From positions 6,417 through 70,416 of the forward strand of contig PHEU01000007.1 of assembly GCA_002841295.1 (NCBI GenBank): DNA of 64,000 bases. Direction: 5' to 3'. Below the pieces are notes generated by a model. It saw only the letters and a list, made by a program, of their open reading frames with translations, was not told the DNA's origin and searched no databases. Both the position numbers and the translations under genes were made by a program. Below, piece after piece: positions 34,400 to 60,892 of the stretch. The stretch's first letter is position 1. Every line of letters begins with the position of its first letter. The stretch comes from Actinobacteria bacterium HGW-Actinobacteria-6 (GTDB lineage Bacteria > Actinomycetota > Coriobacteriia > Anaerosomatales > Anaerosomataceae).

Positions 34400-34485
34400 G
34401 TCGGAGTGGCGGAACGGCAGACGCGCTAGGTTGAGGGCCTAGTGAGGGCAACCTCGTGAGGGTTCAAATCCCTTCTCCGACACCA
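34400..34485 (+). tRNA. tRNA-Leu (anticodon GAG), CCA encoded
   Basis: Hand-folded. Acceptor GTCGGAG/CTCCGAC, anticodon stem CTAGG/CCTAG with loop TTGAGGG, long variable arm, T-loop GGTTCAAATCC. Confidence 0.9.
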
Positions 34486-41048: not shown

Positions 41049-42263
41049 CTATTCGGCGTGCCTGGCAAGCGCGGCGTGCGCAGTATCTGCGACCGCCTGC
41101 ACGATTCCAGCATCGTCTCCCCATGGCGTGAGCGTCACAACGCGGACTTCCTCGGCCAGGCGTGCTGCCTCGATGGACCGCTTCAAGTCCAGTGCGCTCG
41201 CCAGGGTGATGTGCGGCAACGTTGTCGGCGCGATTACGAGTCTATTGCATCCCAGCGCGGCAAGATGCCTGACGGTTTCGGTGATGTCGGGTGCTTGCCA
41301 TTCGATCCAACTGATGCGGATGTTGCGCTCCTGGAATCCGCGCTCAAGCAGCATGAGTTTCACGCGCTGGTTGAAGTAGTTCTCGCGCTCACACCAATCC
41401 TTGCCGAGGGGTTCCCATGCGACCGGCTGTCCTTCGCCGGCGAGAAGAACGCCAACCTCGGAGAGTTGAGCGCCCCGGCAGGACTCGATCACACGCTCCA
41501 CCAGGCGGGCAGCGAGATGGTCTGAACGCCATATACTCTCCGCTTGGATGAGCTGCACGCCGGACGCACCTTCGAGCGCCTCGTGCTCGGCCTCCATCGT
41601 CACGAAGGAGCCTTCCGGGCCGAGGGTAGCCAGAACTGCCGATCGATACCCGTTGCTCTCCAGATCGGCGAGCAGGGTCCTAAGAGTCGGCGAGCCGTCG
41701 CACCACGCGACCGTGACTGTGCCGAAGTCAGAGTTCAATATCTCGGCTACCCTGTCAGCCACCGCCATGACGCCTGCACGCGCAGGGTTGTAATCGCCAA
41801 GCGCGCGGTAGCGGCTCTTCTCGCTCAGAAACACGAAGGGGAGCGCGCTGGTCGGCAGTCTGAGTGCGTCGCTCGTCACGAGACGCTCGATGACACGGGC
41901 CGTCGATGCGATCCTGTAGCGTTCCGCCTCGGCGCAGGAGAGGAGAATGAGCGCGGGTAGCTCACGCGGTTCTGCGTCGGTAACCGAAGGTGTGATCTTC
42001 GGCTGGGCGATCGCATGCGGCAGCGCGGCTGCTGCTGCCCAGTATCCGCCAGCGATTCCGGCAATAACGAAGAAGACCGCGAGGCCAATCGCCGAAGTCG
42101 CATCCTGCGCCGCGATCAGTGAGAACATGCGAACAATCAGAACGGAGCTCAGTATAAGTCCGAAGAAAGCGATGAACTGGCTCCGCCGGGGGGCGACCAG
42201 TAGGCCGACGAAGCAGGCGCCCGCTCCAGTACTCCCTGCGAGCAATCCCAGCCACAGTGGCAC
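41049..42263 (-). CDS. Membrane-anchored protein with a ferrochelatase/CbiX-like (class II chelatase fold) soluble domain
   Basis: GTG start after AAGGA. About 110 N-terminal residues form 3 TM helices. The two-lobed C-terminal region has a layout like HemH (..VLLAGEGQPV.. where HemH has SAHGxP; ..ISWIEWQAPDITETVRHLAALGCNRLVIAPTTL.. where HemH has QSR.G...WL.P...d.l..L...G.k.v.v.P). The assignment is by eye only. Confidence 0.4.
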   Translation of the reverse strand: MPLWLGLLAGSTGAGACFVGLLVAPRRSQFIAFFGLILSSVLIVRMFSLIAAQDATSAIGLAVFFVIAGIAGGYWAAAAALPHAIAQPKITPSVTDAEPRELPALILLSCAEAERYRIASTARVIERLVTSDALRLPTSALPFVFLSEKSRYRALGDYNPARAGVMAVADRVAEILNSDFGTVTVAWCDGSPTLRTLLADLESNGYRSAVLATLGPEGSFVTMEAEHEALEGASGVQLIQAESIWRSDHLAARLVERVIESCRGAQLSEVGVLLAGEGQPVAWEPLGKDWCERENYFNQRVKLMLLERGFQERNIRISWIEWQAPDITETVRHLAALGCNRLVIAPTTLPHITLASALDLKRSIEAARLAEEVRVVTLTPWGDDAGIVQAVADTAHAALARHAE

Positions 42264-42343
42264 GCTTTCGTCCTTTCAGTGTCGATGACGCTTCGACAAT
42301 AGCTGCAAGCATGCCGTGACGGCAACCCGACTTTGACTAGCAA

Positions 42344-42359
42344 ATACCCCATGGGGTAT
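42344..42359. promoter_or_regulatory. CsoR/RcnR-type operator ATACCCC-AT-GGGGTAT inside divergent promoters
   Basis: Plus strand, toward trxA: TTGACT (42333-42338)-N18-TATACT (42357-42362). Minus strand, toward gene 41049..42263: TTGACT (42370-42365)-N18-TATTTG (42346-42341). The palindrome fills the spacer, and its terminal TAT starts each -10 hexamer. Confidence 0.65.
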
Positions 42360-42394
42360 ACTACAGTCAACATCCCCTGAGTAAGGAGTCAATA

Positions 42395-42715
42395 ATGAGC
42401 GAGGGTGTGAAAGAGATCTCTGAATCTGAATTCCAGGCTGAGGTTCTTGATTCAGCCGAGACGGTCGTCGTTGATTTTTGGGCACCGTGGTGTGGACCGT
42501 GCAAGATGGTGGGCCCTGAGCTTGAGAAGCTTGCCGCGCGCACATCCGGGGTCAAGTTTGTCAAGGTGAATGTCGATGAGAGTCGTGAGGTTGCCATCAA
42601 GTACGGCGTGATGAGCATTCCGACTATCGCGAAGTTTGAGAGTGGTAATCTGGTGTCACAAGTTGTAGGGGCTCGCAGCGCGGATGCGCTCGGTCGCGAG
42701 TTTGGGTTGGCGTAA
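42395..42715 (+). CDS. trxA: Thioredoxin
   Basis: 106 aa with a WAPWCGPCK active site. AAGGAG lies 7 nt upstream. Confidence 0.95.
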   Translation: MSEGVKEISESEFQAEVLDSAETVVVDFWAPWCGPCKMVGPELEKLAARTSGVKFVKVNVDESREVAIKYGVMSIPTIAKFESGNLVSQVVGARSADALGREFGLA

Positions 42716-42720
42716 GCAAC

Positions 42721-42915
42721 GTGCCAACGTATGAACTGACATGCGCCGATTGCGGTCATCGCTTCGAGCAGTTCTTGATGCGCATCATTCGTGATCCGGA
42801 CAAGGTATGTCCGGCCTGCGGTTCTGAGCGTATCCTGATGGGGCACGGCGGTGGCTTCATCGGCAAGACTTCCGATAGGAGTTCATCGTGTGGTCCGGTC
42901 GGAGGATTCGGCTGA
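42721..42915 (+). CDS. FmdB-family zinc-ribbon protein
   Basis: MPTYELTCADCGHRFEQF...CPACGS is the canonical FmdB/CxxC-x-CxxC putative regulatory zinc ribbon. Confidence 0.8.
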   Translation: MPTYELTCADCGHRFEQFLMRIIRDPDKVCPACGSERILMGHGGGFIGKTSDRSSSCGPVGGFG

Positions 42916-42963
42916 GGCTAGCGTCCGGCCAGGTTGGTCGGAACGCGCGGCGAATGGTGATGG

Positions 42964-43338
42964 ATGGACTTCTCGTACACTCGAACGTGCCACATGACGT
43001 TCAGTCATGCTATTGAAGCCGTGGAGCGCTCTGTGCGCTCTCACGGCTTCGCCATTGAGAGAATGCATGATCTGCAGGCTACGCTCGCATCCAAGGGCTT
43101 TGCGATTCAGCCGCTGCGCATCTATGAACTCCGATTTGCAGGCGAGGAACACCCGTTTACAGGCGTCGACGGTGAATTCAGGCGCTGTCGCGTCCAAGTC
43201 TATGTGGAGGGGGACGAGGTCTTCGTTGCAGCGATCCGGTCGACCGTCCTGCTCGAGGATGATGCCGAGAATCCTACCGCATGCTTCGAAGAGATCGAAC
43301 ACCGGGTCGCCGATCTCGTGAATCAGATCGCGCAGTAG
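42964..43338 (+). CDS. DUF302-like protein
   Basis: The pattern F..A...ve..l...GF.i....D....L..KG......i.e.. resembles DUF302. The start may be the internal ATG at 42994 (MTFSHAIEAV). Confidence 0.5.
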   Translation: MDFSYTRTCHMTFSHAIEAVERSVRSHGFAIERMHDLQATLASKGFAIQPLRIYELRFAGEEHPFTGVDGEFRRCRVQVYVEGDEVFVAAIRSTVLLEDDAENPTACFEEIEHRVADLVNQIAQ

Positions 43339-43340
43339 CC

Positions 43341-43646
43341 CTACTGCACGCAGCTCGAGTACTTGAGAAAGACCTTGATGGCTTCGTCGATGAGTTCGTC
43401 ACGAGACTTCTCGCCGTCTTCGACAAGACACGTCTTCATCGAGAAGCCTATGATGTGAAGACCGACCTGATTGAGCGCCGACTTTGCAGCCATGATCTGA
43501 GTCAGAACGGCCTCGCAATCCTTGCCGGACTCGATCATCGTCTGTAGGCCACGGATCTGCCCTTCAAGCCGCTTGAGCCTGTTGATGATCTTGCGTCGCT
43601 CTTCGTCGTTGCCGATTGAGTCGCTTGTGAGTTCAATGCCGTCCAT
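43341..43646 (-). CDS. CsoR/RcnR/FrmR-family (DUF156) metal- or thiol-responsive transcriptional repressor
   Basis: 101 aa. RLKRLEGQIRGLQTMIESGKDCEAVLTQIMAAKSALNQVGLHIIGFSMKTC is the family's alpha1-alpha2 core, with Cys at the X and Z ligand positions. Confidence 0.85.
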   Translation of the reverse strand: MDGIELTSDSIGNDEERRKIINRLKRLEGQIRGLQTMIESGKDCEAVLTQIMAAKSALNQVGLHIIGFSMKTCLVEDGEKSRDELIDEAIKVFLKYSSCVQ

Positions 43647-43702
43647 GGTGACTCCCTTGCGTCAGGAGCGGTTTGCCATACAATGATTAGGTTTGGCTCA
43701 CT

Positions 43703-43719
43703 ATACCCCCTGGGGGTAT
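43703..43719. promoter_or_regulatory. CsoR/RcnR-type operator ATACCCCC-T-GGGGGTAT shared by divergent promoters
   Basis: Minus strand, toward the repressor gene: TTGTCG (43729-43724)-N18-TATAGT (43705-43700). Plus strand, toward the CDF gene: TTGGCT (43693-43698)-N18-TATGCG (43717-43722). Confidence 0.7.
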
Positions 43720-43745
43720 GCGTCGACAAGCCGAGGGGGCATCGG

Positions 43746-44687
43746 ATGGGTTACAGCAAAACCAAGAGCGGCACCGACAACTCGCGGGCGGCTATGATCA
43801 AGCGGGTTCTCTGGATCATCCTCGGCTTGAACGTACTTGTTGCTGTTGCCAAGCTCGGATACGGCCTTATCACACGATCGGTTGGAATGACGGCCGACGG
43901 GTTCCACTCTATGTTCGACGGTACCTCGAACGTGATCGGGCTTCTCGCGATGGGCATTGCCGCGCGTCCCGCCGATAGCGATCACCCGTACGGACACTCG
44001 AAGTATGAAACGTTCGCGTCGGTTATCATCGGCGCGATGTTGATGCTGGCCGCCTGGCGCGTGGGAACCTCGGCTTTCGAGCGGCTCATGAACCCTGGCG
44101 AGCCAGCGCGGGTTGATGCCGTCTCGTTCGCCGTCATGATCGGCACGCTCTGTATCAACGTCTTTGTCACAAAGTACGAGCGTAAAGTAGGGGAGCGCCT
44201 GGGTAGCGAGATCCTTGTCGCGGACGCGAGCCACACCGGTAGTGACATTCTTGTGAGCATTGGCGTTATCGTCGGACTCATCGCGGTGAAGCTCGGATTT
44301 CCGATTGCGGATCCAATCGTCGGTCTTGTGGTCGCCGGATTCATAGTCTTCGCTGCGCTGCGTGTCTTCAAGTCCGCGAATGAGACGCTCTCCGACAGGG
44401 CCAGAATCGCACCCGAAGAGATCAGGGTCGTGGCTCTTGGGGTACCCGGTGTCCTGGGCTGCCATGAGGTTCGGACGAGAGGCCCTCTTGCCGAGGTGTA
44501 CGTGGACCTGCACATTCAAGTTGATCCGACGGTGAGTGTTGCCGAGGGCCATGCGATCGCCGAACGAGTTGAGAAGTCGATCTGTGAGAACCTGAGTCAG
44601 GTCACAGACGTTATTGCGCATCTTGAACCGCTCGATGAGTATCAGAGGCGAAAGACCGAACTACAAGTCGCCGAAGAATCGGAATAA
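43746..44687 (+). CDS. Cation diffusion facilitator (CDF) family divalent metal efflux transporter
   Basis: Start at ATG 43746 after GAGGGGG. TM2 HSMFDGTSN and TM5 HTGSDILVS form an H-D/H-D site. There is a C-terminal cytoplasmic domain (VRTRGPLAEVYVDLHIQVD). Confidence 0.9.
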   Translation: MGYSKTKSGTDNSRAAMIKRVLWIILGLNVLVAVAKLGYGLITRSVGMTADGFHSMFDGTSNVIGLLAMGIAARPADSDHPYGHSKYETFASVIIGAMLMLAAWRVGTSAFERLMNPGEPARVDAVSFAVMIGTLCINVFVTKYERKVGERLGSEILVADASHTGSDILVSIGVIVGLIAVKLGFPIADPIVGLVVAGFIVFAALRVFKSANETLSDRARIAPEEIRVVALGVPGVLGCHEVRTRGPLAEVYVDLHIQVDPTVSVAEGHAIAERVEKSICENLSQVTDVIAHLEPLDEYQRRKTELQVAEESE

Positions 44688-44690
44688 GAC

Positions 44691-45671
44691 GTGCCGAAGC
44701 CCGTATCTGACGAAAACCGCAAGGACAAGCTGACTGGATACGGACTGGCCGTACTGGCCGCAGTGTGCTGGGCCACCGGGGGGCTTGGTGCGAAGTGGCT
44801 GTTCACGCCGCTGAACCCGACCACTGCCGGTTGGCCATTTCCGCCGCTCGGGATTGATATCGATCCCGTGATGCTGTCCGCATCGCGCGCCCTGGTTGCG
44901 TTTCTGATGCTCTTCACGTACCTGCTGATATCGCGCCGAAAAGCACTTCGAGTTCGTGTCGCAGACCTACCGTTTCTGGTGTTCTTCGGTGTCGTCGGAC
45001 TTGCGCTCGTCCATTTCAGCTACTTCAAGGCCATTTCGCTCACCAACGTCGCGACCGCGATATTGCTTGAGTATCTCGCGCCGGTGATCGTGCTCGTTGT
45101 GTCGGTCGGATTCCTGCGAGATCGTTTCACCTGGGCATTGCCGGCCTCGGTGCTGCTGTCGGTCACAGGTTGCGCACTCGTAGTAGGGGCTATTGGTGGC
45201 GCTGGGCTGAGTGTCTCCGGTGCCGGCCTGGCCTGGGGTCTCGCCTCTGCGGGATTCTTCGCGGGTTACACGCTCATGGGGCGCTGGGCGGCGCACAAGT
45301 TCTCGGCATGGACGCTGCTGACGTATGGGCTTGGCGCTGCAACGATATTCTGGTTCGTGGTGCTTGGTGGCCCGGGCTCCATCTTCGCGACGTTGTCTGA
45401 CATGCGCACGTTTGCGGCTGTGAGCTTCATTGCGTTCACAAGTACGGTCGTGCCGTTCGGGGCATTCCTGAAGGCCCTCAAGTACATTCGTGCGACCGAG
45501 GCTTCGGTAACCGCCACCCTTGAACCGGTTCTGGCAGCGATTCTTGCGTGGTTCTTGTTCCGCGAGTCACTCGGTGTGGCGCAGATGCTTGGAGGATTGC
45601 TGGTGATTTCAGCGATCGTCGTGTCACAGATGTCGCCCGCAGCCCGGGATGAGCTGCCGCCGGCAGTCTAG
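44691..45671 (+). CDS. EamA/DMT-superfamily permease
   Basis: Ten predicted TM helices in two EamA-like halves. GTG start 4 nt after the CDF stop. Confidence 0.75.
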   Translation: MPKPVSDENRKDKLTGYGLAVLAAVCWATGGLGAKWLFTPLNPTTAGWPFPPLGIDIDPVMLSASRALVAFLMLFTYLLISRRKALRVRVADLPFLVFFGVVGLALVHFSYFKAISLTNVATAILLEYLAPVIVLVVSVGFLRDRFTWALPASVLLSVTGCALVVGAIGGAGLSVSGAGLAWGLASAGFFAGYTLMGRWAAHKFSAWTLLTYGLGAATIFWFVVLGGPGSIFATLSDMRTFAAVSFIAFTSTVVPFGAFLKALKYIRATEASVTATLEPVLAAILAWFLFRESLGVAQMLGGLLVISAIVVSQMSPAARDELPPAV

Positions 45672-45710
45672 TATGTGGTGAGAACCGCGATTTCGTGGGA
45701 ATATATCTTC

Positions 45711-45726
45711 TGGTACGTAGTTTGCT
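45711..45726 (+). promoter_or_regulatory. Candidate sigma-54 (-24/-12) promoter TGGTAC-GTAGT-TTGCT upstream of rpoN
   Basis: The GG and GC dinucleotides have the canonical spacing (positions 2-3 and 14-15), as in TGGCAC-N5-TTGCW. It lies 48 nt upstream of the rpoN ATG. The -24 element deviates at one position (TGGTAC versus TGGCAC). Confidence 0.5.
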
Positions 45727-45773
45727 AAGGGCCGCGCCATCGCGCCTGGGGACGACGTACCAGAGGAGTCTCA

Positions 45774-47168
45774 ATGGAACTCTCCCACAGGCCGGAACTA
45801 CGGCACAAAGTCACCTTGTCGCCCCAGGTCTATCAGGGGCTCACTATTCTTGCAATGCCGGTCGCTGAGCTTCAGATGCTGATCGAGACCGAGCTGCTGG
45901 AGAACCCCGTCCTTGAGTTGGAAGAGGACGAGCACGAGCCCGCGGAGGAACTCGATGACCGCGTCGACGATTCCGAAGAAGAGCGCGCCTGGGATGACTG
46001 GCTTGACCAGTACGATGACCTCGAGCAGCTGGATTCAGGTTCTCCGCGCGATCCGAACCAAGAGGAGATCAACTCCGAAGACTTTGTCGGCGGAGTACAG
46101 TCCTTCGATGACTATCTGCTCGATCAGCTGGGCATGATCGAAGCTCCGGAGGACGTTGCCCGCGCCGCACGCGCGATCATCGGCTCACTGGACAATGACG
46201 GCCTGTTCGTCGGAGATAGTGCTGAGATAGCTGCAATCACCGGTGTCAGCGTTGCCGTGGCCGACAAGGCGCTCTCGGTCGTCCAGCAGCTTGACCCTCC
46301 CGGAGTCGGTGCCAGGAACGTTCGCGAAGCTCTGAGGATTCAGGCTGCGTACCTCGGGATAGACACCCCGCTCCTCCTTGCACTCATCGAGCGTCATCTC
46401 GACGCCGTGGCTGTGAGTCACACGCGCAAGATCGCGCGTGCGGAGCATGTCAGCGAGGACGAAGTGCGCGACACCGTTGAGAAGCTCAAGCAACTCAATC
46501 CTCGACCAGCCGGGGCATTCTCCCCCGGGCACGCGCCCGGCTATGTGGTCCCGGATGTCACGCTACGCCGTTTTGGGGACGAGTGGCTCATTATCCCGAA
46601 CAATGAGGCTGTTCCTACGCTGAAGGTCTCTCCTCGGTACAGGCAGATGCTTCGAAGCCAGTCGAGCGCGGATGACGAAACACGCAAGTACCTCAAGGAC
46701 AAGATTCGCTCGGCAGAATCGTTCCTGCGCAACGTTGATCGTCGCAGGGACACCGTGAGCCGCATCGCGGAGATCATCTTGGAGACCCAGCATGACTTCT
46801 TCGAGGACGGACGCGGGGACATGCGTCCGCTGCGCCTGGAAGATGTCGCTGTTGAGATCGGCGTGCATCTCAGTACGATAAGTCGGGGCGTCACCGGGAA
46901 GTACATGGCGACTCCGTACGGACTCTTTGAGTTGAAGCACTTCTTCTCGGGCGGCTACCGAACCTCGAGCGGTATGGACGTGGCTGCAACCACCGTGAAG
47001 CGGCGGATCAAGGAGTTCCTTGAGGCAGAGGATCCCGCGCACCCGCTGTCCGATCAGAAGCTTGCCGAGGCGCTCTCAGGCGAGGGCGTCGATGTGGCGC
47101 GCCGGACGGTCGCGAAGTATCGCGAGGAGATCGGCATCGACCCGTCGTGGGCGAGGAAGCGCCGATGA
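45774..47168 (+). CDS. rpoN: RNA polymerase sigma-54 factor
   Basis: 464 aa with a Gln/Leu-rich region I (LSPQVYQGLTILAMPVAELQMLIETELLENPVLE), an acidic region II, a core-binding region, an HTH and the RpoN box (ARRTVAKYRE). Confidence 0.95.
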   Translation: MELSHRPELRHKVTLSPQVYQGLTILAMPVAELQMLIETELLENPVLELEEDEHEPAEELDDRVDDSEEERAWDDWLDQYDDLEQLDSGSPRDPNQEEINSEDFVGGVQSFDDYLLDQLGMIEAPEDVARAARAIIGSLDNDGLFVGDSAEIAAITGVSVAVADKALSVVQQLDPPGVGARNVREALRIQAAYLGIDTPLLLALIERHLDAVAVSHTRKIARAEHVSEDEVRDTVEKLKQLNPRPAGAFSPGHAPGYVVPDVTLRRFGDEWLIIPNNEAVPTLKVSPRYRQMLRSQSSADDETRKYLKDKIRSAESFLRNVDRRRDTVSRIAEIILETQHDFFEDGRGDMRPLRLEDVAVEIGVHLSTISRGVTGKYMATPYGLFELKHFFSGGYRTSSGMDVAATTVKRRIKEFLEAEDPAHPLSDQKLAEALSGEGVDVARRTVAKYREEIGIDPSWARKRR

Positions 47169-48703
47169 AGCCAGAGAAGCAGCAAACCGAGCGCATGGGC
47201 GACAAGCTTGACCAAACACTCGTCACAGGCCAGAGAAGCGACGGGCGGGATGTTGCGCTCATCGTGATCTTGCTCGGCGTTATCACCGTTCTGCATCTGT
47301 TCACGACCACATCGGCTCAGGCCATGCCGATGCATCTGCTGTACCGCAAGCTGTACTACCTACCGATCATGTACGCAGGTTTCGTGTTTGGCCGACGCGG
47401 CGGTTTCATCACGGCGATCGCAGCGAGCTTGCTGTTTGGATTGCACGCTACGGTCTCATTGGGCGGCCTTCTCGGTGTGCATATCGACAACCTCTACGAG
47501 ATCGTGATGTACCTCGCTGTCGGTGTGATGTTCGGCTGGTTGCGTGATCTTGCCGAGGCCAAGACGAGCGACCTGCGTCAGTTGAGCAAACAGCTTGAGG
47601 AAGCGTACCGAAAACTAGAAGAGCGCGCGATACAACTCGTCAACATCCAGGACTACACCCAGTCGATCCTGCGCTCTATCACGTCGGGCGTCATGACTGT
47701 TGGTCCTGACGGCTCAGTCGCGACCGCCAACCCGGCCGCCGAGCGCATGTTGGGCGTGCGGGAGGTCGACATCGTCCCTCGGCGTATCGGTACGCTCTTC
47801 GCCGATGACTCAGGGCTCGACGCCGAGGTAACGAAGGTTCTCAACGGTCGCATCCCGAAGTCTGTCCGCGACATGCGACTGGTCACGCGGGCGGGCAGAG
47901 TGCTCCACGTGCAGGTCTCCACTTCGCGCATGCGCGATGTCGATGGCCGCATACTCGGCGCCGTCGTCACCATTGAGGATGTGTCCGAGGTCAAGGCGCT
48001 GACAGACCAACTTATCCGTGCTGATCGACTCGCAGCCATGGGCGAATTGACGGCGGGCGTGGCGCATGAGGTTCGAAACCCGCTCGGCATCATCAGGGCT
48101 TCGGTCCAGCTGGTTGAGGAATCTGGATGCGACCGCAGTAGGGTGCTGGAGGCGACGAGCGTCATCAAGCAAGAGATCGACCGCCTCGACCGCGTCATCA
48201 AGGCCCTGCTCGACTTCGGAAGGCCGTCGAAGCCATACCTACGACTAACGGACATGGGAGAAGTCATCGAGGACGTCATTTTGTTCACGCGCCGGTTTGC
48301 CGGACAATCGAAGGTGACGATCTCAGCCACCGACACCGGATCTCTGCCACAGATCATGGCTGACCCCGATCAAATGAAGCAGGTCTTTGTGAACCTCGTT
48401 TCGAACGCCGTGCAAGCGATGGAAGGCACGGGAGGCAAGATTTCTCTCAGTGGGCGGGTTGTTGACGGGTTCCTTTCGATCTCAATCTCGGACGACGGTC
48501 CCGGAATTCCCGCCGCAGACGTCAAGAAGGTATTTGATCCGTTCTACTCGACGCGTGATGCGGGTACGGGTCTCGGGTTGACGATCGTGCATCGTATTTT
48601 GGATGAGCACGACGGACACATCGAAGTCATAAGCGACCTTGGGCAGGGCACAACGTTCATCGTTTCCCTGCCTGTGTTCCAGATCAATGAGGAGGACCGA
48701 TGA
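47165..48703 (+). CDS. Sensor histidine kinase (membrane domain, PAS, HisKA, HATPase_c; NtrB/AtoS-like)
   Basis: ATG 47165 overlaps the rpoN stop (ATGA). There are four N-terminal TM helices, a PAS domain (SILRSITSGVMTVGPDG) and the H-box GELTAGVAHEVRNPL. N, G1 and G2 boxes are present (NLVSNAVQAM, DDGPGI, GTGLGL). Confidence 0.9.
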   Translation: MKPEKQQTERMGDKLDQTLVTGQRSDGRDVALIVILLGVITVLHLFTTTSAQAMPMHLLYRKLYYLPIMYAGFVFGRRGGFITAIAASLLFGLHATVSLGGLLGVHIDNLYEIVMYLAVGVMFGWLRDLAEAKTSDLRQLSKQLEEAYRKLEERAIQLVNIQDYTQSILRSITSGVMTVGPDGSVATANPAAERMLGVREVDIVPRRIGTLFADDSGLDAEVTKVLNGRIPKSVRDMRLVTRAGRVLHVQVSTSRMRDVDGRILGAVVTIEDVSEVKALTDQLIRADRLAAMGELTAGVAHEVRNPLGIIRASVQLVEESGCDRSRVLEATSVIKQEIDRLDRVIKALLDFGRPSKPYLRLTDMGEVIEDVILFTRRFAGQSKVTISATDTGSLPQIMADPDQMKQVFVNLVSNAVQAMEGTGGKISLSGRVVDGFLSISISDDGPGIPAADVKKVFDPFYSTRDAGTGLGLTIVHRILDEHDGHIEVISDLGQGTTFIVSLPVFQINEEDR

Positions 48704-50049
48704 AACGGCGCGTACTGATTGCCGATGATGAGAAGAACATGCGCTGGGTGCTTGCCCAGGCATTGAGCGCTGAAGGGTACGAGGTGCAGGAGGCGGCCGA
48801 CGGTAAGGCAGTTCTGGCCGCCGTCAATGAGCAGCCGCCGGATCTTATGGTTCTCGACCACAAGATGCCCGCGCCGGACGGCATGGAGGTTCTGCGTCGG
48901 CTGCGGGCCAAAGGACACTCGTTCCCGATCATCATGCTCACAGCGCACGGCAATGTGACGAGCGCTGTTGAGGCGATGAAGGCGGGCGCAAGCGAGTATC
49001 TGACGAAGCCATTCGATCTTGAAGAGTTGAAGATCAGCATTGAGAAGGCCCTGAAGGTCAGCGAGCTCTCGGCCGAGGTCACACGGCTTCGCGAGGAGCT
49101 CGACCGGGACTACGACGTCTCGGGAATCGTTGCGGCCGATCCGTCGATGCTCGGCATCCTTGAGACCATTCGCAAAGTTGCTCCGACGAGTGCCACCGTC
49201 ATGGTCTATGGCGAGTCAGGTACGGGCAAAGAGCTCGTAGCCCGGGCTATGCACACAATGTCGGCCCGTTCGACCAAGCCGTTCATCTCTGTGAGCGCAG
49301 GCGCGTTGCCCGAGACGCTTCTGGAGAGTGAGCTGTTCGGGTACGAAAAGGGCGCCTTCACTGGTGCAATGCAGGCAAAACCCGGGCGTTTCGAACTCGC
49401 AAACGGCGGGACGATATTCCTGGATGAAATCGGGGACATCAGCCCGAACGTGCAAGTCAAGCTGCTGCGGGTACTGCAGGAGAGGACTTTTGAGCGCCTT
49501 GGCGGCACACGTCAGATCGAGGTCGATGTTCGCGTCGTGGCGGCTACCAACCGGGATATCCAGCAGCTGATTGCCGACGGGGATTTCAGAGAGGATCTCT
49601 ACTACCGGCTCAACGTCGTCCCTGTCACCTTGCCGCCGCTTCGGCAGAGACCAAGCGAGATTCCGCTTCTGATCGCGCACTTCCTTGAGAAGTACAAGGC
49701 CGGCGACAGGCACTTCTCCGACGAGGCCATGAGGCTATTGGTCGAATATCAATGGCCCGGCAATGTCCGCGAACTTGAGAACACCATCGAGCGGATAGGA
49801 ATCCTTGCCCGCGGCGAAGAAATCGATATTGATGATCTGCCTTCGGAGGTGCGCGCCGGAGTCGCGATGTGCTCACCCGGCGAACGATGTTTCGTTCTGC
49901 CAGAGGTCGGAATCAGCTTGGAAGAAGTGGAACTCGACTTCTTGCGACAGGCGCTTGAACGCACTGGCGGTTCGGCTCCCAAGGCCGCAAAACTCCTCGG
50001 TCTTACAACCAAGACCCTGGAAGCCCGAATGGAGAAGTTCGGCTTGTAG
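48700..50049 (+). CDS. Sigma-54-dependent response regulator (NtrC family: REC, AAA+ with GAFTGA, Fis-type HTH)
   Basis: REC domain (DLMVLDHKMP), Walker A GESGTGKE, GAFTGA loop (EKGAFTGA), and a C-terminal HTH (APKAAKLLGLTTKTLEARMEKFGL). ATGA overlap with the kinase stop. Confidence 0.95.
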   Translation: MKRRVLIADDEKNMRWVLAQALSAEGYEVQEAADGKAVLAAVNEQPPDLMVLDHKMPAPDGMEVLRRLRAKGHSFPIIMLTAHGNVTSAVEAMKAGASEYLTKPFDLEELKISIEKALKVSELSAEVTRLREELDRDYDVSGIVAADPSMLGILETIRKVAPTSATVMVYGESGTGKELVARAMHTMSARSTKPFISVSAGALPETLLESELFGYEKGAFTGAMQAKPGRFELANGGTIFLDEIGDISPNVQVKLLRVLQERTFERLGGTRQIEVDVRVVAATNRDIQQLIADGDFREDLYYRLNVVPVTLPPLRQRPSEIPLLIAHFLEKYKAGDRHFSDEAMRLLVEYQWPGNVRELENTIERIGILARGEEIDIDDLPSEVRAGVAMCSPGERCFVLPEVGISLEEVELDFLRQALERTGGSAPKAAKLLGLTTKTLEARMEKFGL

Positions 50050-50076
50050 CCGCAGCCTCCGCTGACTGTCAACCCT

Positions 50077-50092
50077 TGGCACGAGGCTTGCA
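50077..50092 (+). promoter_or_regulatory. Sigma-54 (-24/-12) promoter TGGCAC-GAGGC-TTGCA
   Basis: Perfect match to TGGCAC-N5-TTGCW. It lies 28 nt after the NtrC-family gene stop and 40 nt upstream of ATG 50132. Confidence 0.75.
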
Positions 50093-50131
50093 ATACTCGT
50101 TATGTTGTTCTACATCGTCGCAGGGTGAAGT

Positions 50132-50488
50132 ATGCATCCACAGAGCAAGCGAAGAGTGGTCGTTGTTGCAGCGGGTATCATCGCTGTCGTTTCGCTTGTC
50201 GCCGGACTCATTCTGCTCGTCAATGCCGAGGACGGATTCTCCGGTTGCACGGGTGCGGCTGAGTTTGGTTGGCTGGCGCCTTTGCTGGCAGCGTCGATCA
50301 TCGGCGGCCTCGCCTGGGTACTGTTGGCTCAAGATCCTCCTGCGGCCGATGATGCCGGAAACACGCAGATCGCGGAATGCCCGGAGTGCAAACGAGCGGT
50401 TCTCGGCCAATGGCGAATGTGTCCATACTGCGGAGAGATGCTCGATCCTCGCTACTCCACCCGCGCGGCAGCGTCACAGAACAAGTAG
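50132..50488 (+). CDS. Two-TM membrane protein with a C-terminal zinc ribbon (CPEC-x12-CPYC)
   Basis: 118 aa with two hydrophobic helices, then ECPECKRAVLGQWRMCPYCGEML. RBS AGGGTGAAG. No named family recognised. Confidence 0.6.
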   Translation: MHPQSKRRVVVVAAGIIAVVSLVAGLILLVNAEDGFSGCTGAAEFGWLAPLLAASIIGGLAWVLLAQDPPAADDAGNTQIAECPECKRAVLGQWRMCPYCGEMLDPRYSTRAAASQNK

Positions 50489-50509
50489 TGGAATTCACGA
50501 ACGCCGGAG

Positions 50510-50740
50510 GTGCTTATGTCTGAGTTGGTCACAACGCGCTTCGCTACGACCGGTATGCACTGTCACTCATGCTCGATGCTCATCCAGATGAGCCTCGACG
50601 ACGTTGACGGCATTGAGAGCGCGGTTGCGGACAGTGCGTCTGGTATGACGGAAGTCGTCTACGATGCCGAGCGTGTTACTCCCGAGGTTATCATCTCGGA
50701 AATCGTTAAGGCAGGGTACGGCGCTGAGGTTGCCGAGTAG
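50510..50740 (+). CDS. Heavy-metal-associated (HMA) domain metallochaperone, CopZ-like
   Basis: 76 aa. TTGMHCHSCSMLI is a GMxCxxC motif in a beta-alpha-beta-beta-alpha-beta sized protein. GGAGGTG lies upstream. Confidence 0.85.
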   Translation: MLMSELVTTRFATTGMHCHSCSMLIQMSLDDVDGIESAVADSASGMTEVVYDAERVTPEVIISEIVKAGYGAEVAE

Positions 50741-50758
50741 ACCTACGACTGGACGAAA

Positions 50759-50775
50759 ATACCCCCCGGGGGTAT
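50759..50775. promoter_or_regulatory. CsoR/RcnR-type operator ATACCCCC-C-GGGGGTAT in the ccdA promoter
   Basis: TGGACG (50750-50755)-N17-TATAGT (50773-50778). The palindrome again fills the spacer, and its terminal TAT starts the -10 hexamer. Confidence 0.65.
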
Positions 50776-50860
50776 AGTATATGCACTGCGAACCGAGGCC
50801 GCGAGCAGCGGCCTCTGCCGTATCCACAATTCGGTGCGGTGCTTGATGATTGGATGATTC

Positions 50861-51607
50861 ATGCCTGACGCCACCGTGAGCTACCTTGGAGCCTTTCTTG
50901 GCGGCCTTTTGTCGTTTCTGTCGCCGTGTGTGCTTCCGCTCATTCCCGGATATCTGTCCTTCATGACCGGACTGAGTGCCGGGGACCTGAAGAAGGGGGA
51001 GTCCGGCGTCGCCAGGGTTCTCATTCCGAGCGCGCTGTTCACGCTAGGATTCTCCGTCGTGTTCATCTTGCTAGGCGCCGCAGCTGGCTTCGCGAGCGGT
51101 GCCCTTCGTCCGTTCATGATCCGCTACGAGAATATTCTGGGTGTTGCTGCCGGTGTCGTGGTCGTGCTAGTGGGCGTGTTCTTGCTCGGTGTCATCAAGG
51201 TGCCCTGGCTGTACGGTGAGGCGCGCTTCGAGATGGCTAAGGCTCGGCGCTTTGGCCATGGAGCATCGTTCGTCATGGGCCTGGCTTTCGGCTTCGGGTG
51301 GACACCGTGCGTGGGACCGATATTGGCTGTCATTCTCGGCATGGCCGCCCAGACGGGGGATGCGGTGCGTTCCGCCAGCATGCTCGCCGTGTACTCGCTG
51401 GGCCTGGCAACACCGTTTCTTCTGACAGCGGTCTTCTTCGGCCGCCTGACCACTGCCCTGGGATGGTTCAATCGGCACTCGCTTGCGTTGTCCCGAGCGG
51501 CGGGCGTCGTGTTGATTCTCATGGGCGTGCTCATAGCGACCGGTGAGCTTGGTCGCCTGTCTACTCTCATCATCAAGGCGCTGCCATTCTTGTCTGGCCT
51601 CGGCTAA
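50861..51607 (+). CDS. ccdA: Cytochrome c biogenesis / thiol-disulfide transfer protein CcdA (DsbD-family membrane core)
   Basis: LSFLSPCVLPLIPGYLSF and GWTPCVGPILA are the two conserved Cys-containing motifs of CcdA/DsbD. Six TM helices. Confidence 0.9.
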   Translation: MPDATVSYLGAFLGGLLSFLSPCVLPLIPGYLSFMTGLSAGDLKKGESGVARVLIPSALFTLGFSVVFILLGAAAGFASGALRPFMIRYENILGVAAGVVVVLVGVFLLGVIKVPWLYGEARFEMAKARRFGHGASFVMGLAFGFGWTPCVGPILAVILGMAAQTGDAVRSASMLAVYSLGLATPFLLTAVFFGRLTTALGWFNRHSLALSRAAGVVLILMGVLIATGELGRLSTLIIKALPFLSGLG

Positions 51608-60579: not shown

Positions 60580-60653
60580 TGGAGGCGACGCCCGGATTCG
60601 AACCGGGGATAAAGGCTTTGCAGGCCTCTGCCTTGCCACTTGGCGACGTCGCC
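60580..60653 (-). tRNA. tRNA-Cys (anticodon GCA), CCA encoded
   Basis: The reverse complement folds as GGCGACG...anticodon loop CTGCAAA...GGTTCGAATCC...CGTCGCC-T-CCA. Confidence 0.9.
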
Positions 60654-60747
60654 GTTTTAGGGGGAGCAAGTCGCTCCCTGCTTAAGAAAAGAAGGTCGGC
60701 CCCGATGGGCTTTGGAGAGCCTCGGACCAACCTTCCGGGGTGAACTA

Positions 60748-60823: not shown

Positions 60824-60892
60824 GCGCAAGGGGTAGTCTACCAATGCTCGGATACTGCTACAATAGTCGTCGCTGTTCATTGGGCAGCAGAT

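What the first reader, a model, noticed from the sequence alone, without database searches (positions are those of the whole stretch)
42333..50778. Three near-identical CsoR-type palindromes placed identically inside five promoters define a local regulon linking thiol-redox proteins, a CDF exporter and a partner-switching operon
**Sites**
- Site 1: ATACCCC-AT-GGGGTAT (42344-42359).
- Site 2: ATACCCCC-T-GGGGGTAT (43703-43719).
- Site 3: ATACCCCC-C-GGGGGTAT (50759-50775).

**Geometry**
- The palindrome always fills the -35/-10 spacer, and its terminal TAT is the first half of the -10 hexamer.
- Site 1 plus strand, toward trxA-fmdB-DUF302: TTGACT-N18-TATACT.
- Site 1 minus strand, toward the chelatase-like membrane protein: TTGACT-N18-TATTTG.
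- Site 2 minus strand, toward the CsoR-family gene (autoregulation): TTGTCG-N18-TATAGT.
- Site 2 plus strand, toward CDF-EamA: TTGGCT-N18-TATGCG.
- Site 3, toward ccdA, which is followed by the 1097-aa GAF-PP2C sensor and the STAS-kinase fusion: TGGACG-N17-TATAGT.

**Why it stands out**
- GC-tract palindromes flanked by ATA/TAT are the known operator type of CsoR-family repressors.
- No Cu-ATPase is controlled here. The targets are thioredoxin, CcdA, a CDF and a chelatase-like protein.
- That points to a thiol/persulfide or non-copper metal stimulon rather than a classical cop operon.
Basis: partly seen in the sequence, partly recalled or inferred. Interest (0 to 1): 0.7.

Follow-up and report, generated by a model that had tools for sequence, protein, structure and literature searches.

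The report
Conserved three-operator CsoR-family thiol regulon
Three near-identical DNA palindromes are real, conserved binding-type sites for a neighbouring CsoR-family repressor that lacks the copper-binding histidine, and they most likely switch on thioredoxin, a membrane thiol-reductant transporter with a signalling operon, and a metal exporter when the repressor's cysteines are chemically modified.

Summary
ATACCCC-N2/3-GGGGTAT occurs exactly three times in 64 kb, against 0 expected. In 80 related Coriobacteriia/Anaerosomatales-type loci, 187 of 188 matches are at the same three intergenic positions: S2 77/79, S1 69/75, S3 41/54.

Only three of the five proposed promoters hold up: trxA-fmdB-DUF302, the regulator gene and ccdA-PP2C-STAS/kinase. 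Each keeps a TATAnT -10 fused to the palindrome, and a neutral scan finds the same three. CDF-EamA control is inferred from geometry, because S2 ends about 23 bp before the start codon. The chelatase-like gene has its own conserved promoter about 40 nt beyond S1 and is probably not controlled.

The repressor has Cys44 and Cys73 at the CsoR ligand positions, but Ser/Ala where Cu, Ni and Co sensors have His. It also has a conserved Cys99 and His64. It therefore matches the x-C-x-C (CstR/ScCsoR-like) class, yet its regulon has no sulfur-detoxification genes and no copA.

The operator type is shared by streptomycete Cu-CsoR and the persulfide sensor ScCsoR, so it does not identify the effector. 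The most likely mechanism is thiol-modification-triggered derepression, with soft-metal sensing as the rival. I class it as a new variant of a known kind, of moderate interest.

The parts
42344..42359 (.). Operator S1, a 16-bp palindrome ATACCCCATGGGGTAT (TAC-N8-GTA)
   Evidence: Present in 69/75 related loci and 16 bp long in 68/69. Absent in 5 of 6 loci that lack trxA.
42333..42362 (+). trxA-operon promoter TTGACT-N18-TATACT. The -10 begins with the last TAT of S1.
   Evidence: Neutral scan gives 10/12. TATAnT and TTGAC are conserved across 69 loci. TANNNT in 56/69. Median distance from palindrome to trxA start is 41 nt.
42395..42715 (+). trxA, a thioredoxin with WCGPC motif (106 aa)
   Evidence: PF00085 3.2e-30. 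TIGR01068 scores 111 bits, above its cut-off.
42721..42915 (+). FmdB-family CxxC..CxxC zinc-ribbon protein (64 aa)
   Evidence: PF09723 9e-14. TIGR02605.
42964..43338 (+). DUF302-type small protein. The ORF is 124 aa; the likely true start is Met11 at 42994, giving 114 aa.
   Evidence: No hit in my hmmscan, but homologues including a 100%-identical 114-aa form carry precomputed PF03625. Follows fmdB in most loci.
43341..43646 (-). CsoR-family repressor (101 aa) with RLKR DNA-binding motif. Sensor residues are Cys44 and Cys73, with Ser69 at the Y position. The clade-specific KYSSC tail carries Cys99, and His64 is also clade-specific.
   Evidence: PF02583 1.4e-25. Alignments to solved structures. 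Conservation in 78 orthologues. Far below the RicR, FrmR and RcnR cut-offs.
43703..43719 (.). Operator S2, a 17-bp palindrome ATACCCCCTGGGGGTAT (TAC-N9-GTA)
   Evidence: Present in 77/79 loci and always 17 bp.
43700..43729 (-). Autoregulated promoter of the repressor gene, TTGTCG-N18-TATAGT
   Evidence: Neutral scan gives 9/12. TANNNT in 77/77 loci and cTTGc -35 conserved.
43746..44687 (+). CDF cation exporter with HxxxD (TM2) and HxxxD (TM5). Its start codon is 27 bp after S2.
   Evidence: PF01545 and PF16916. Best NCBIfam match is Cdf31 Zn efflux, below cut-off. Motifs read. First gene next to S2 in 68/77 loci, median 23 bp from the palindrome.
44691..45671 (+). EamA/DMT-family transporter, 3 bp after the CDF gene
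   Evidence: PF00892 1.7e-38. An EamA homologue is also divergent from the regulator in 3 loci of a sister clade.
50759..50775 (.). Operator S3, a 17-bp palindrome ATACCCCCCGGGGGTAT
   Evidence: Present in 41/54 loci. Where it is absent, the HMA-ccdA gap is usually short (16-83 bp in 9 of 13 loci), so the genes may be fused into one operon.
50750..50778 (+). ccdA-operon promoter TGGACG-N17-TATAGT
   Evidence: Neutral scan gives 9/12. TATAnT conserved. TANNNT in 34/41. Median distance to ccdA start is 45 nt.
50861..51607 (+). CcdA-type membrane thiol-disulfide electron transporter with two PCxxP cysteines (C23, C150)
   Evidence: PF02683 1.8e-18. Sequence read.
51648..54941 (+). HAMP-GAF-GAF-PP2C (SpoIIE/RsbU-type) sensor phosphatase, 1097 aa, probably co-transcribed with ccdA
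   Evidence: A homologue lies immediately downstream of ccdA in 41/48 loci.
54990..55772 (+). STAS + HATPase_c_2 (anti-anti-sigma/anti-sigma-kinase-like) fusion protein
50516..50740 (+). HMA/CopZ-like protein with GMHCHSC motif, ending 19 nt before S3. It is adjacent to the regulon but not demonstrably inside it.
   Evidence: PF00403 3.7e-12. Motif read. Conserved upstream of S3/ccdA in most loci.
41049..42263 (-). Membrane-anchored ferrochelatase/CbiX-like protein. It neighbours S1 but probably has its own promoter (about 42289-42318, minus strand) outside the operator.
   Evidence: Conserved TAT[TC]GT/TACCCT box 40-45 nt beyond S1 in 24 of 70 regions (27/70 have the box anywhere within 130 nt), against 2 controls. 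TATCAT variants occur in further loci.

Best explanation
The three palindromes are operators of the adjacent 101-aa CsoR-family repressor.

By analogy with characterised family members, the reduced protein would bind each TAC-N8/9-GTA site, probably as two tetramers per operator. Each site fills the -35/-10 spacer and supplies the first half of the -10 hexamer, so a bound repressor would occlude RNA polymerase at three promoters: trxA-fmdB-DUF302, its own gene, and ccdA-(GAF-PP2C)-(STAS/kinase).

S2 also lies within about 23 bp of the CDF start codon. It therefore necessarily overlaps or follows any CDF-EamA promoter and should repress that operon too. At S3 the bound repressor could additionally block read-through from the upstream HMA gene.

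The sensor site keeps the two CsoR cysteines (Cys44 and Cys73' across the dimer) but has Ser/Ala instead of the metal-ligand His. It also has a clade-specific C-terminal Cys99 and His64.

The most likely trigger is covalent thiol modification (persulfidation or polysulfide bridging, or disulfide formation), as in CstR, ScCsoR and TTHA1953. This would release the DNA and induce three things: a cytoplasmic thioredoxin, the CcdA conduit that passes Trx reducing power across the membrane, and a Zn-type CDF/EamA export pair. It would also feed a partner-switching cascade.

What is shown: the sites, their rarity, their positional conservation, the promoter geometry and the sensor-residue pattern. 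What is inferred: binding by this protein, repression, co-transcription of the downstream genes, and the nature of the effector.
For: - Motif rarity: 3 matches against 0 expected, and no further sites at 3 mismatches.
- Positional conservation: in 1.37 Mb from 80 related loci, 185 of 188 strict matches were assigned to the three positions. Two of the other three are S1 sites at incomplete loci, so 187/188 are at those positions. The last is in a Thermoanaerobaculia outgroup. 37 loci keep all three sites while regulator identity ranges from 59 to 98%.
- Promoters: the fused -10/-35 geometry is conserved for trxA, the regulator and ccdA, and a neutral scan recovers the same three.
- S1 disappears together with trxA.
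- S2 to CDF start codon is a median of 23 bp in 68 loci.
- Regulator: PF02583. R23-L-K-R26 matches the RLXR DNA-binding motif described for SlCsoR (PMC3902906).
- Operator: it equals the streptomycete CsoR consensus and the ScCsoR ATACCn6GGTAT site (PMC3902906, PMC7533328).
- Sensor residues: C44 78/78, C73 77/78, C99 77/78, H64 75/78; Y position S61/A17 and never His. Ser69 aligns with the ligand His of GtCsoR, InrS and 6AHX, and with Asn of SpCstR.
- x-C-x-C defines candidate persulfide sensors (PMC8643695).
- Nearest 50%-identity representatives are nearly all x-C-(non-His)-C, and many carry the KYxxCV tail.
- Precedent: TTHA1953, a two-Cys CsoR-like repressor, silences a divergent promoter pair that includes a thioredoxin gene, and loses DNA binding on disulfide formation (PMC10318464).
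- Host physiology: Anaerosomatales respire sulfur/thiosulfate or Fe(III) and encode multihaem cytochromes c. Reactive sulfur species and CcdA function are therefore both relevant (PMC9686372).
Against: - There are no binding, transcript or effector data for any member of this clade.
- The gene neighbourhood lacks the sulfurtransferase, persulfide dioxygenase, SQR and TauE genes that support CstR assignments.
- A Zn/Co/Cd-type CDF is the gene closest to the autoregulatory operator, and a CopZ-like HMA gene abuts S3. Three conserved Cys plus a His could form a soft-metal site.
- The CDF-directed promoter is not conserved as a recognisable sigma-70 promoter.
- S3 is missing in 13/54 genomes.
- Co-transcription of PP2C and STAS/kinase with ccdA is inferred only from short gaps and conserved gene order.
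Confidence: 0.55

Rival explanations
1. The repressor is a metal sensor with an all-thiolate (Cys44/Cys73/Cys99, possibly with His64) site for a thiophilic ion: Cu(I)/Ag(I), or Zn(II)/Cd(II)/Co(II). Metal binding releases the operators. The cell then exports the ion through the CDF and repairs metal-induced thiol damage with TrxA and CcdA, as in Scs/DsbD-type copper-tolerance systems.
For: - The CDF has the HxxxD/HxxxD quartet and is the first gene beside S2 in 68/77 loci.
- A GMxCxxC HMA gene lies directly upstream of S3, and ccdA is usually close enough to HMA to share an operon where S3 is absent.
- A third invariant Cys and a conserved His exist beyond the CstR-type pair.
- The operator is identical in type to that of Cu(I)-CsoR of Streptomyces (PMC3902906).
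- From established knowledge: RcnR-type DmeR controls the CDF DmeF, and DsbD/Scs proteins contribute to copper tolerance.
Against: - The His ligand present in every characterised Cu, Ni or Co sensor of the family is Ser/Ala in all 78 orthologues (PMC8643695).
- The residue before Cys-X is Asp/Glu, not the Tyr of Cu-CsoRs (the Tyr is from established knowledge of MtCsoR Y35).
- There is no N-terminal His or Pro 'W' ligand.
- No copA is under the operator. The only P1B ATPase in the window is Zn/Cd/Pb-type, 40 kb away and without a site.
- The HMA gene is upstream of S3, not downstream.
- Most conserved operator-promoter fusions drive thiol-redox genes rather than transporters.
Confidence: 0.27
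2. The palindromes are bound by a different, unlinked regulator, or are structural or repeat elements. Their adjacency to the CsoR-family gene is coincidental.
For: No direct binding data exist. The TAT of the palindrome is part of the -10 box, so some of its conservation could reflect promoter constraint rather than an operator.
Against: - The full 16-17 bp palindrome is invariant in both arms, including arms that are not part of any -10.
- 187 of 188 matches are at the three positions.
- S2 is retained in 77/79 genomes next to the regulator gene, even where the CDF or EamA gene is lost.
- A sister clade has a related palindrome upstream of its own regulator gene in 6 of 11 loci examined.
- The sequence matches experimentally defined CsoR-family operators (PMC3902906, PMC7533328).
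Confidence: 0.05
3. All five divergent promoters, including those of the chelatase-like gene and the CDF, are occluded in the same way.
For: - The hexamers TTGACT-N18-TATTTG and TTGGCT-N18-TATGCG are present in this window.
- In two genomes (L052, L057) the chelatase-like gene directly follows the regulator gene on the same strand, so there it would be under S2.
- TTHA1953 blocks both directions of a divergent promoter from one operator (PMC10318464).
Against: - Neither hexamer pair is conserved: TANNNT in 18/69 and 23/77, against 15/41 for a control direction.
- Neither passes the neutral scan.
- The apparent conservation on those sides is only the reverse complement of the opposing promoter's -35.
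- The chelatase gene has its own conserved -10/-35-like boxes, which put the centre of S1 at about -65 to -70.
- The chelatase gene persists without S1 in five genomes that have lost trxA.
Confidence: 0.12

Closest known systems
ScCsoR of Streptomyces coelicolor (SSN cluster 3, actinomycete CstR-like persulfide sensor; PMC7533328, PMC8643695)
   Same: - It comes from the phylum Actinomycetota.
- It has a two-Cys x-C-x-C sensor.
- Its 16-bp operator ATACCn6GGTAT fits S1 exactly.
- Its sites lie at -9 in target promoters.
- It is autoregulated.
- It forms a small local regulon of three promoters.
   Different: - ScCsoR controls persulfide dioxygenase, rhodanese and a TauE sulfite exporter; none of these is present here.
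- ScCsoR has only two cysteines. This clade adds an invariant C-terminal Cys99 (KYSSC tail) and His64.
- The targets here are TrxA, CcdA, a partner-switching pair and CDF/EamA.
CstR of Staphylococcus aureus, Enterococcus faecalis and Streptococcus (SSN clusters 4 and 10; PMC8643695; structure 7MQ1)
   Same: - It has the PF02583 fold.
- It has Cys at X and Z, 29 residues apart, with a non-His residue at Y (Asn in SpCstR, Ser/Ala here).
- An acidic residue precedes Cys-X.
- phmmer E = 5e-11 to SpCstR.
   Different: - No cst-type sulfurtransferase, PDO or SQR genes are present.
- This clade has an extra Cys99 and His64.
- Pairwise similarity is no higher than to the Cu or Ni sensors GtCsoR and InrS.
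TTHA1953 of Thermus thermophilus (PMC10318464)
   Same: - It is a two-Cys CsoR-like repressor with a TATACC..GGTAT palindrome.
- It represses a divergent promoter pair whose first gene is a thioredoxin (SoxW).
- Its DNA binding is lost on intersubunit disulfide formation.
- Changing the arm spacing by 1 nt alters its affinity 10-15 fold, which is relevant to the fixed 16-bp S1 versus 17-bp S2 seen here.
   Different: - TTHA1953 controls the periplasmic Sox thiosulfate-oxidation pathway, at loci far from its own gene.
- CcdA in that cluster was not derepressed.
- It has no C-terminal Cys.
Cu(I)-sensing CsoR of Streptomyces lividans and Bacillus, and RicR of M. tuberculosis (SSN cluster 1; PMC3902906, PMC3944814)
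   Same: - The operator type is essentially identical (consensus ATATACCCCTNAGGGGTATAT, 16-19 bp, overlapping the -10).
- It has the RLXR motif.
- It has three operators including its own promoter (S. lividans).
- It can form a multi-promoter regulon (RicR).
   Different: - The x-C-H-C ligand set is not met (Ser/Ala at Y).
- No copZA lies downstream of an operator.
- The NCBIfam RicR model scores 51.8 bits against a cut-off of 175.
DmeR-DmeF and RcnR-RcnA (Ni/Co-sensing family members that control an exporter; from established knowledge)
   Same: A CsoR/RcnR-family repressor gene sits next to a cation-efflux gene, which in DmeRF is a CDF.
   Different: - The H-C-H-H ligand set is absent.
- The RcnR model scores 37.5 bits against a cut-off of 138, and the CDF is only weakly DmeF-like (42 bits against 250).
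- RcnR uses type-1 operators with a single G-tract, not the type-2 sites seen here.

Membership tests
CsoR/RcnR superfamily (PF02583) | Match to the Trns_repr_metal domain above Pfam's gathering score | tested here: met
   89.9 bits against a cut-off of 22.8, E = 1.4e-25. Ten solved family members are hit.
CsoR/RcnR superfamily (PF02583) | Alpha-1 RLXR DNA-binding motif and a G/C-tract pseudopalindromic operator with a TAC/GTA inverted repeat | tested here: met
   R23 and R26 are invariant within N-R-L-K/R-R. The operators are TAC-N8/9-GTA. Motif definitions come from PMC3902906.
Cu(I)-sensing CsoR (SSN clusters 1, 17, 23) | x-C-H-C (or x-C-H-H) ligand set, with His four residues before Cys-Z | tested here: not met
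   Position 69 is Ser (61) or Ala (17) in 78 orthologues. It aligns with the ligand His of 4M1P, 5FMN and 6AHX.
Cu(I)-sensing CsoR (SSN clusters 1, 17, 23) | copA and copZ in the immediate neighbourhood and under the operator | tested here: not met
   No P1B-1 ATPase occurs in the conserved 20-kb block. An HMA gene is present, but it is upstream of S3. The only P1B pump in the window is Zn/Cd/Pb-type, 40 kb away and without a site.
Cu(I)-sensing CsoR (SSN clusters 1, 17, 23) | High-affinity Cu(I) binding that lowers DNA affinity | not testable with these tools
   This needs purified protein.
CstR-type persulfide sensors (SSN clusters 3, 4, 10) | x-C-x-C: two conserved Cys at X and Z, with no metal-ligand His at Y | tested here: met
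   C44 78/78 and C73 77/78; Y is S or A. Definition from PMC8643695.
CstR-type persulfide sensors (SSN clusters 3, 4, 10) | Neighbourhood encodes sulfide/sulfite detoxification genes (rhodanese/sulfurtransferase, persulfide dioxygenase, SQR, TauE) | tested here: not met
   None was found among the genes flanking the three operators or among the other annotated ORFs of the window. The conserved block contains only the genes listed under parts.
CstR-type persulfide sensors (SSN clusters 3, 4, 10) | Persulfide or polysulfide reacts with the Cys pair and releases DNA | not testable with these tools
   This needs LC-MS and EMSA on purified protein.
RcnR/InrS/NcrB Ni-Co sensors | H-C-H-H or H-C-H-C ligand set including an N-terminal His | tested here: not met
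   There is no N-terminal His and no His at Y. RcnR equivalog scores 37.5 bits against 138.
FrmR formaldehyde sensors | Pro2 plus Cys-X (P-C-H-x) | tested here: not met
   The N-terminus is MDGIEL and is variable across the clade. FrmR equivalog scores 41 bits against 133.

The most novel reading that the evidence does not exclude
This may be a previously uncharacterised three-cysteine branch of the CsoR family, marked by Cys-X, Cys-Z and a C-terminal KYxxCV cysteine that probably lies near the DNA-binding face.

In this reading it acts as the general thiol-stress master switch of the anaerobic actinobacterial order Anaerosomatales. A single redox-sensitive repressor would co-ordinate three outputs: the TrxA-to-CcdA transmembrane reducing pathway, Zn-type CDF/EamA export, and a GAF-PP2C/STAS-kinase partner-switching cascade. 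That would functionally replace the sigmaR-RsrA or Spx type of disulfide-stress control. The fixed 16-bp versus 17-bp operator spacing would set a hierarchy of derepression.
Probability: 0.3. Interest if true: 0.65.

Novelty: new variant of a known kind. Interest (0 to 1): 0.45.

Why it matters
Effector specificity in the CsoR family is still predicted mainly from the W-X-Y-Z residues and from neighbouring genes, and several large sequence clusters remain uncharacterised (PMC8643695).

This locus gives a clean, phylogenetically footprinted regulon for one such group. It has three operators, three conserved promoters, and a sensor site with a Cys pair plus a third invariant Cys. Its targets (thioredoxin, CcdA, a partner-switching module and a CDF/EamA pair) fit neither the copper nor the sulfide-detoxification pattern.

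If the thiol-switch reading is right, three things follow:
- The known range of CsoR-family outputs would extend to general thiol-redox homeostasis and envelope reductant supply.
- A one-component redox sensor would be linked to a PP2C/STAS signalling cascade.
- We would have a first regulatory handle on the physiology of the widespread subsurface OPB41/Anaerosomatales lineage, for which cultured strains now exist (PMC9686372).

If instead it senses a metal through an all-thiolate site, it would be a new ligand set for the family.

Tried and rejected
- **Chelatase- and CDF-directed fused promoters:** rejected as conserved features.
- **The 171-aa ORF at 50076-50591:** rejected as a gene. The conserved frame is 50132-50488.
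- **A sigma-54 -24/-12 promoter** that might explain the rpoN/EBP genes or HMA expression: a simple TGGCAC-N5-TTGCW scan found nothing in the window.
- **Extra degenerate operators,** for example near the P1B ATPase: only chance-level 3-mismatch hits at 1018 and 60979.
- **The distant P-type ATPase as a test of the copper hypothesis:** it proved to be Zn/Cd/Pb-type, so it is uninformative.
- **Known RNA elements in the 5' leaders:** Rfam reports only four tRNAs in the window.
- **The sister clade (P0166-like) as a clue to the effector:** it shares only a related palindrome and a divergent EamA gene, with no sulfur or metal genes.
- **Structure prediction of the regulator:** not run. The tool returns no coordinates and models no oligomer, so it could not place Cys99 relative to the intersubunit Cys44/Cys73' site.
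- **Literature searches** for a CsoR-family group with a conserved C-terminal Cys, or for a DUF302 link, found nothing relevant.
- **Repeat or mobile-element explanation:** rejected on copy number and positional conservation.

Full report
**1. The observation**

- S1, 42344-42359, ATACCCCATGGGGTAT
- S2, 43703-43719, ATACCCCCTGGGGGTAT
- S3, 50759-50775, ATACCCCCCGGGGGTAT

The pattern ATACCCCN{2,3}GGGGTAT occurs three times in the 64-kb window, against 0.00 expected from dinucleotide-preserving shuffles. A much looser pattern finds the same three, against 0.05 expected. Allowing three mismatches adds only two chance-level hits.

**2. Gene map**

| Coordinates | Strand | Feature |
|---|---|---|
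| 41049-42263 | - | Ferrochelatase/CbiX-like protein with about four N-terminal hydrophobic segments |
| 42344-42359 | . | S1 |
| 42395-42715 | + | trxA (WCGPC) |
| 42721-42915 | + | FmdB zinc ribbon |
| 42964-43338 | + | DUF302-type protein |
| 43341-43646 | - | CsoR-family regulator (PF02583, 101 aa) |
| 43703-43719 | . | S2 |
| 43746-44687 | + | CDF exporter |
| 44691-45671 | + | EamA transporter |
| 45774-47168 | + | rpoN |
| 47147-48703 | + | PAS histidine kinase |
| 48700-50049 | + | NtrC-type activator |
| 50132-50488 | + | 118-aa membrane protein with C-terminal zinc ribbon |
| about 50516-50740 | + | HMA/CopZ-like protein (GMHCHSC) |
| 50759-50775 | . | S3 |
| 50861-51607 | + | ccdA (two PCxxP cysteines) |
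| 51648-54941 | + | HAMP-GAF-GAF-PP2C, 1097 aa |
| 54990-55772 | + | STAS + HATPase_c_2 fusion |

Notes on this map:
- The DUF302-type protein matches no family in my hmmscan, but PF03625 is precomputed for all its homologues.
- The 118-aa gene is the conserved frame. The overlapping 171-aa ORF is an artefact.

**3. Phylogenetic footprinting**

The regulator's closest relatives are 80-98% identical proteins from Coriobacteriia/Anaerosomatales-type MAGs. I fetched 80 genomic loci. The whole ~15-kb arrangement is conserved even where protein identities fall to 30-60%.

| Site | Loci with site / loci with that intergenic region | Length |
|---|---|---|
| S2 | 77/79 | 17 bp in all 77 |
| S1 | 69/75 | 16 bp in 68 of 69 |
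| S3 | 41/54 | 16 or 17 bp |

37 loci have all three sites, with regulator identity from 59 to 98%.

In 1.37 Mb of related sequence, 185 of 188 strict matches were assigned to these three positions. Two of the other three are S1 sites at incomplete loci, so 187 of 188 are at those positions. The last lies in a Thermoanaerobaculia outgroup.

**4. Promoter geometry**

I anchored all orthologous sites on the palindrome and profiled the flanks.

*Three conserved promoters.* The promoters facing trxA, the regulator gene and ccdA keep a TATAnT -10, whose TAT is the end of the palindrome, and a TTG-type -35.

| Direction | TANNNT at the fused -10 |
|---|---|
| S1 -> trxA | 56/69 |
| S2 -> regulator | 77/77 |
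| S3 -> ccdA | 34/41 |
| S1 -> chelatase | 18/69 |
| S2 -> CDF | 23/77 |
| S3 opposite strand (control) | 15/41 |

The apparent conservation on the chelatase and CDF sides is only the reverse complement of the opposing -35. A neutral sigma-70 scan of 41.9-51.9 kb recovers exactly the same three promoters and neither of the other two.

*Chelatase-like gene.* It has its own conserved boxes: a TAT[TC]GT/TACCCT -10 (with TATCAT variants) at a fixed 40-45 nt beyond S1 in most loci that carry it, preceded by a TTGCCG/TGGCG-like -35. That puts the centre of S1 at about -65 to -70 from the chelatase start site. S1 is missing in five of six genomes that lack trxA and in one with a truncated trxA, while the chelatase gene remains. 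S1 therefore belongs to trxA, not to the chelatase gene. The one counter-hint is that in L052 and L057 the chelatase gene follows the regulator gene directly, and so would be under S2.

*CDF-EamA.* The palindrome ends a median of 23 bp (range 15-54) before the CDF start codon in 68 loci. Any CDF promoter must therefore overlap or precede S2, and repression is expected from geometry even though the specific hexamers are not conserved.

*Downstream genes.* PP2C follows ccdA directly in 41/48 loci.

*Loci without S3.* Where S3 is absent, the HMA-ccdA gap is usually short: 16-83 bp in 9 of 13 loci. This suggests S3 is a regulated internal promoter within an HMA-ccdA transcription unit, where a bound repressor could also act as a roadblock.

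**5. The regulator**

Alignment to solved family members:
- Cys44 and Cys73 sit at the X and Z ligand positions, 29 residues apart.
- Ser69 sits where GtCsoR, InrS and 6AHX have the ligand His, and where SpCstR has Asn.

Conservation across 78 orthologues:

| Position | Residue counts |
|---|---|
| C44 | 78/78 |
| C73 | 77/78 |
| Y position (69) | Ser 61, Ala 17, never His |
| Position before Cys-X (43) | Asp 57, Glu 19, Gln 2 |
| C99 (KYSSC tail) | 77/78 |
| H64 | 75/78 |
| Position 68 | His 55, Tyr 20, Phe 2 |
| N-R-L-K/R-R-L-E-G-Q (DNA-binding/dimer motif) | invariant |

NCBIfam's RicR, FrmR and RcnR models score far below their cut-offs.

Among 1.84 billion 50%-identity representatives, only 8 score at E <= 1e-30 and 205 at E <= 1e-10. 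The nearest are almost all x-C-(non-His)-C. Many carry a KYxxCV C-terminal motif, and some are tandem two-domain fusions. C-H-C proteins appear only further out.

By the published classification, x-C-x-C members are candidate persulfide sensors (PMC8643695). That assignment is normally backed by neighbouring sulfide-detoxification genes, which are absent here.

**6. The operator does not identify the effector**

The streptomycete Cu(I)-CsoR consensus is ATATACCCCTNAGGGGTATAT, with natural sites of 16-19 bp and two tetramers per DNA (PMC3902906). The persulfide sensor ScCsoR of S. coelicolor binds ATACCn6GGTAT at -9 in its target promoters (PMC7533328). Both fit S1-S3. The DNA-binding half of the system is therefore canonical for actinobacterial CsoR-family proteins. 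The sensor half and the target genes are what differ.

**7. Mechanism**

*Best-supported reading.* The reduced repressor occupies S1-S3 and occludes the three fused promoters, plus the CDF promoter region. Covalent modification of the Cys pair releases it, possibly with Cys99 taking part.

Precedents:
- CstR forms di- to tetrasulfide links (PMC8643695).
- ScCsoR is persulfidated on the N-terminal Cys (PMC7533328).
- TTHA1953 loses DNA binding on disulfide formation and represses a divergent promoter pair headed by a thioredoxin gene (PMC10318464).

*Coherence of the outputs (from established knowledge).*
- Thioredoxin is the cytoplasmic donor for CcdA, which carries reducing equivalents across the membrane to extracytoplasmic thiol-disulfide oxidoreductases, for example for cytochrome c maturation.
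- Thioredoxins reduce persulfides and disulfides.
- Thiol oxidation mobilises Zn from thiolate sites, which would make a Zn-type CDF a sensible co-target.

*Host physiology.* Anaerosomatales are obligate anaerobes that respire sulfur/thiosulfate or Fe(III) and encode multihaem cytochromes c (PMC9686372).

*Cys99.* It lies within a few residues of the position equivalent to SlCsoR R132, an alpha-3 residue tested for a role in DNA affinity (PMC3902906). This mapping extrapolates the alignment coordinates and is an inference. If correct, the extra cysteine sits near the DNA-binding face.

*Operator spacing.* The strict difference between S1 (16 bp) and S2 (17 bp) may set different affinities, because a 1-nt spacing change altered TTHA1953 affinity 10-15 fold (PMC10318464). 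This is also inference.

**8. Rivals**

- *Soft-metal sensor.* An all-thiolate (plus or minus His64) site is the serious alternative. The CDF (HxxxD/HxxxD) is the gene nearest the autoregulatory operator, an HMA gene abuts S3, and three Cys plus a His are conserved. Against it, the His ligand common to all characterised metal-sensing members is missing, there is no copA, HMA lies upstream of S3, and the best-conserved operator-promoter fusions drive thiol-redox genes. I estimate about 0.27.
- *A different regulator or a repeat element.* About 0.05.

**9. Confidence, split by claim**

| Claim | Confidence |
|---|---|
| The three palindromes are operators of the adjacent CsoR-family protein and control trxA, the regulator gene and ccdA | about 0.85 |
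| CDF-EamA is also controlled | about 0.7 |
| The chelatase-like gene is controlled | about 0.15 |
| The effector acts by covalent thiol modification rather than metal binding | about 0.55-0.6 |

**10. Novelty and interest**

The repressor family, the operator type, autoregulation and multi-operator local regulons are all known. What is new is the combination:
- a distinct, well-conserved clade with a third invariant cysteine
- a regulon of thioredoxin, CcdA, a partner-switching pair and a CDF/EamA exporter, with neither cop nor cst genes
- order-wide conservation in a poorly studied subsurface lineage

I class it as a new variant of a known kind, with moderate interest (0.45). It gives a sharply testable hypothesis, and cultured relatives exist, but it would not greatly surprise specialists who already regard the family as functionally diverse.

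Noticed in passing
window 45774-50049: rpoN (sigma-54), a PAS histidine kinase and an NtrC-type enhancer-binding protein lie inside the conserved synteny block of this Actinomycetota (Coriobacteriia/Anaerosomatales-type) lineage, in about 70 MAGs. A simple TGGCAC-N5-TTGCW scan found no -24/-12 promoter anywhere in the window, so their target is unknown.
   Followed up: partly
window 50076-50591 versus 50132-50488: The 171-aa ORF is an off-frame artefact rich in Cys, Arg and Ser. The conserved gene is a 118-aa protein with two hydrophobic segments and a C-terminal CxxC..CxxC ribbon. It is found in 61 related loci, directly upstream of the GMxCxxC HMA gene.
   Followed up: yes
window 50794-50814: A GC-rich hairpin GAGGCCGC-N5-GCGGCCTC lies between the S3 -10 box and ccdA. 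It is kept with compensatory changes in close relatives (L002, L003, L004, L007, L009, L010, L046) and is absent in distant ones. It could be a terminator remnant of the HMA unit or a 5' stabiliser of the ccdA mRNA.
   Followed up: partly
S1 and S2 in the window and in loci L001-L079: S1 is 16 bp in 68/69 genomes and S2 is 17 bp in 77/77. The two operators thus keep different arm spacings across the whole lineage, which may encode different repressor affinities.
   Followed up: partly
proteins P0152-P0160, P0168, P0175; locus L076 10001-10546: The nearest 50%-identity representatives of the regulator include 160-230-aa proteins with two CsoR-like domains in tandem, where only the second domain carries the KYxxCV tail. 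L076 has two paralogous regulator genes in tandem.
   Followed up: partly
L007, spacer between S1 and the chelatase-like gene: There are four tandem copies of GGCCTATTGTCA, so the TATTGT box taken here as the chelatase -10 is repeated. It might instead be a binding site for another factor.
   Followed up: no
window 1372-3435: A P1B-2 (Zn/Cd/Pb-type) P-type ATPase with CPC and ADTG motifs. The IB2_Cd model scores above its cut-off and the Cu model below. It has no CsoR-type operator nearby.
   Followed up: yes
window 34547-36580 (-): A second GAF-PP2C sensor phosphatase (MASE3-GAF-SpoIIE, 677 aa) lies 15 kb upstream of the one that follows ccdA.
   Followed up: no
loci L083-L085, L090-L092: A sister clade of regulators (KYVQCV tail, C-R-C motif, about 50% identity) has a related palindrome GTACCC-N4/5-GG(G)GTAT 40-165 bp upstream of its own gene. 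In three loci it also has a divergently oriented EamA homologue. EamA is the only target-type gene shared between the two clades.
   Followed up: partly
loci L011, L012, L015, L069 (positions about 160-1900): In these genomes ccdA and S3 are missing, and several additional HMA-like segments lie downstream of the HMA gene. This may be a multi-HMA protein or a metal ATPase N-terminus.
   Followed up: no
window 60583-60964 and 34400-34482: Four tRNA genes are the only Rfam gathering-score hits in the window.
   Followed up: yes
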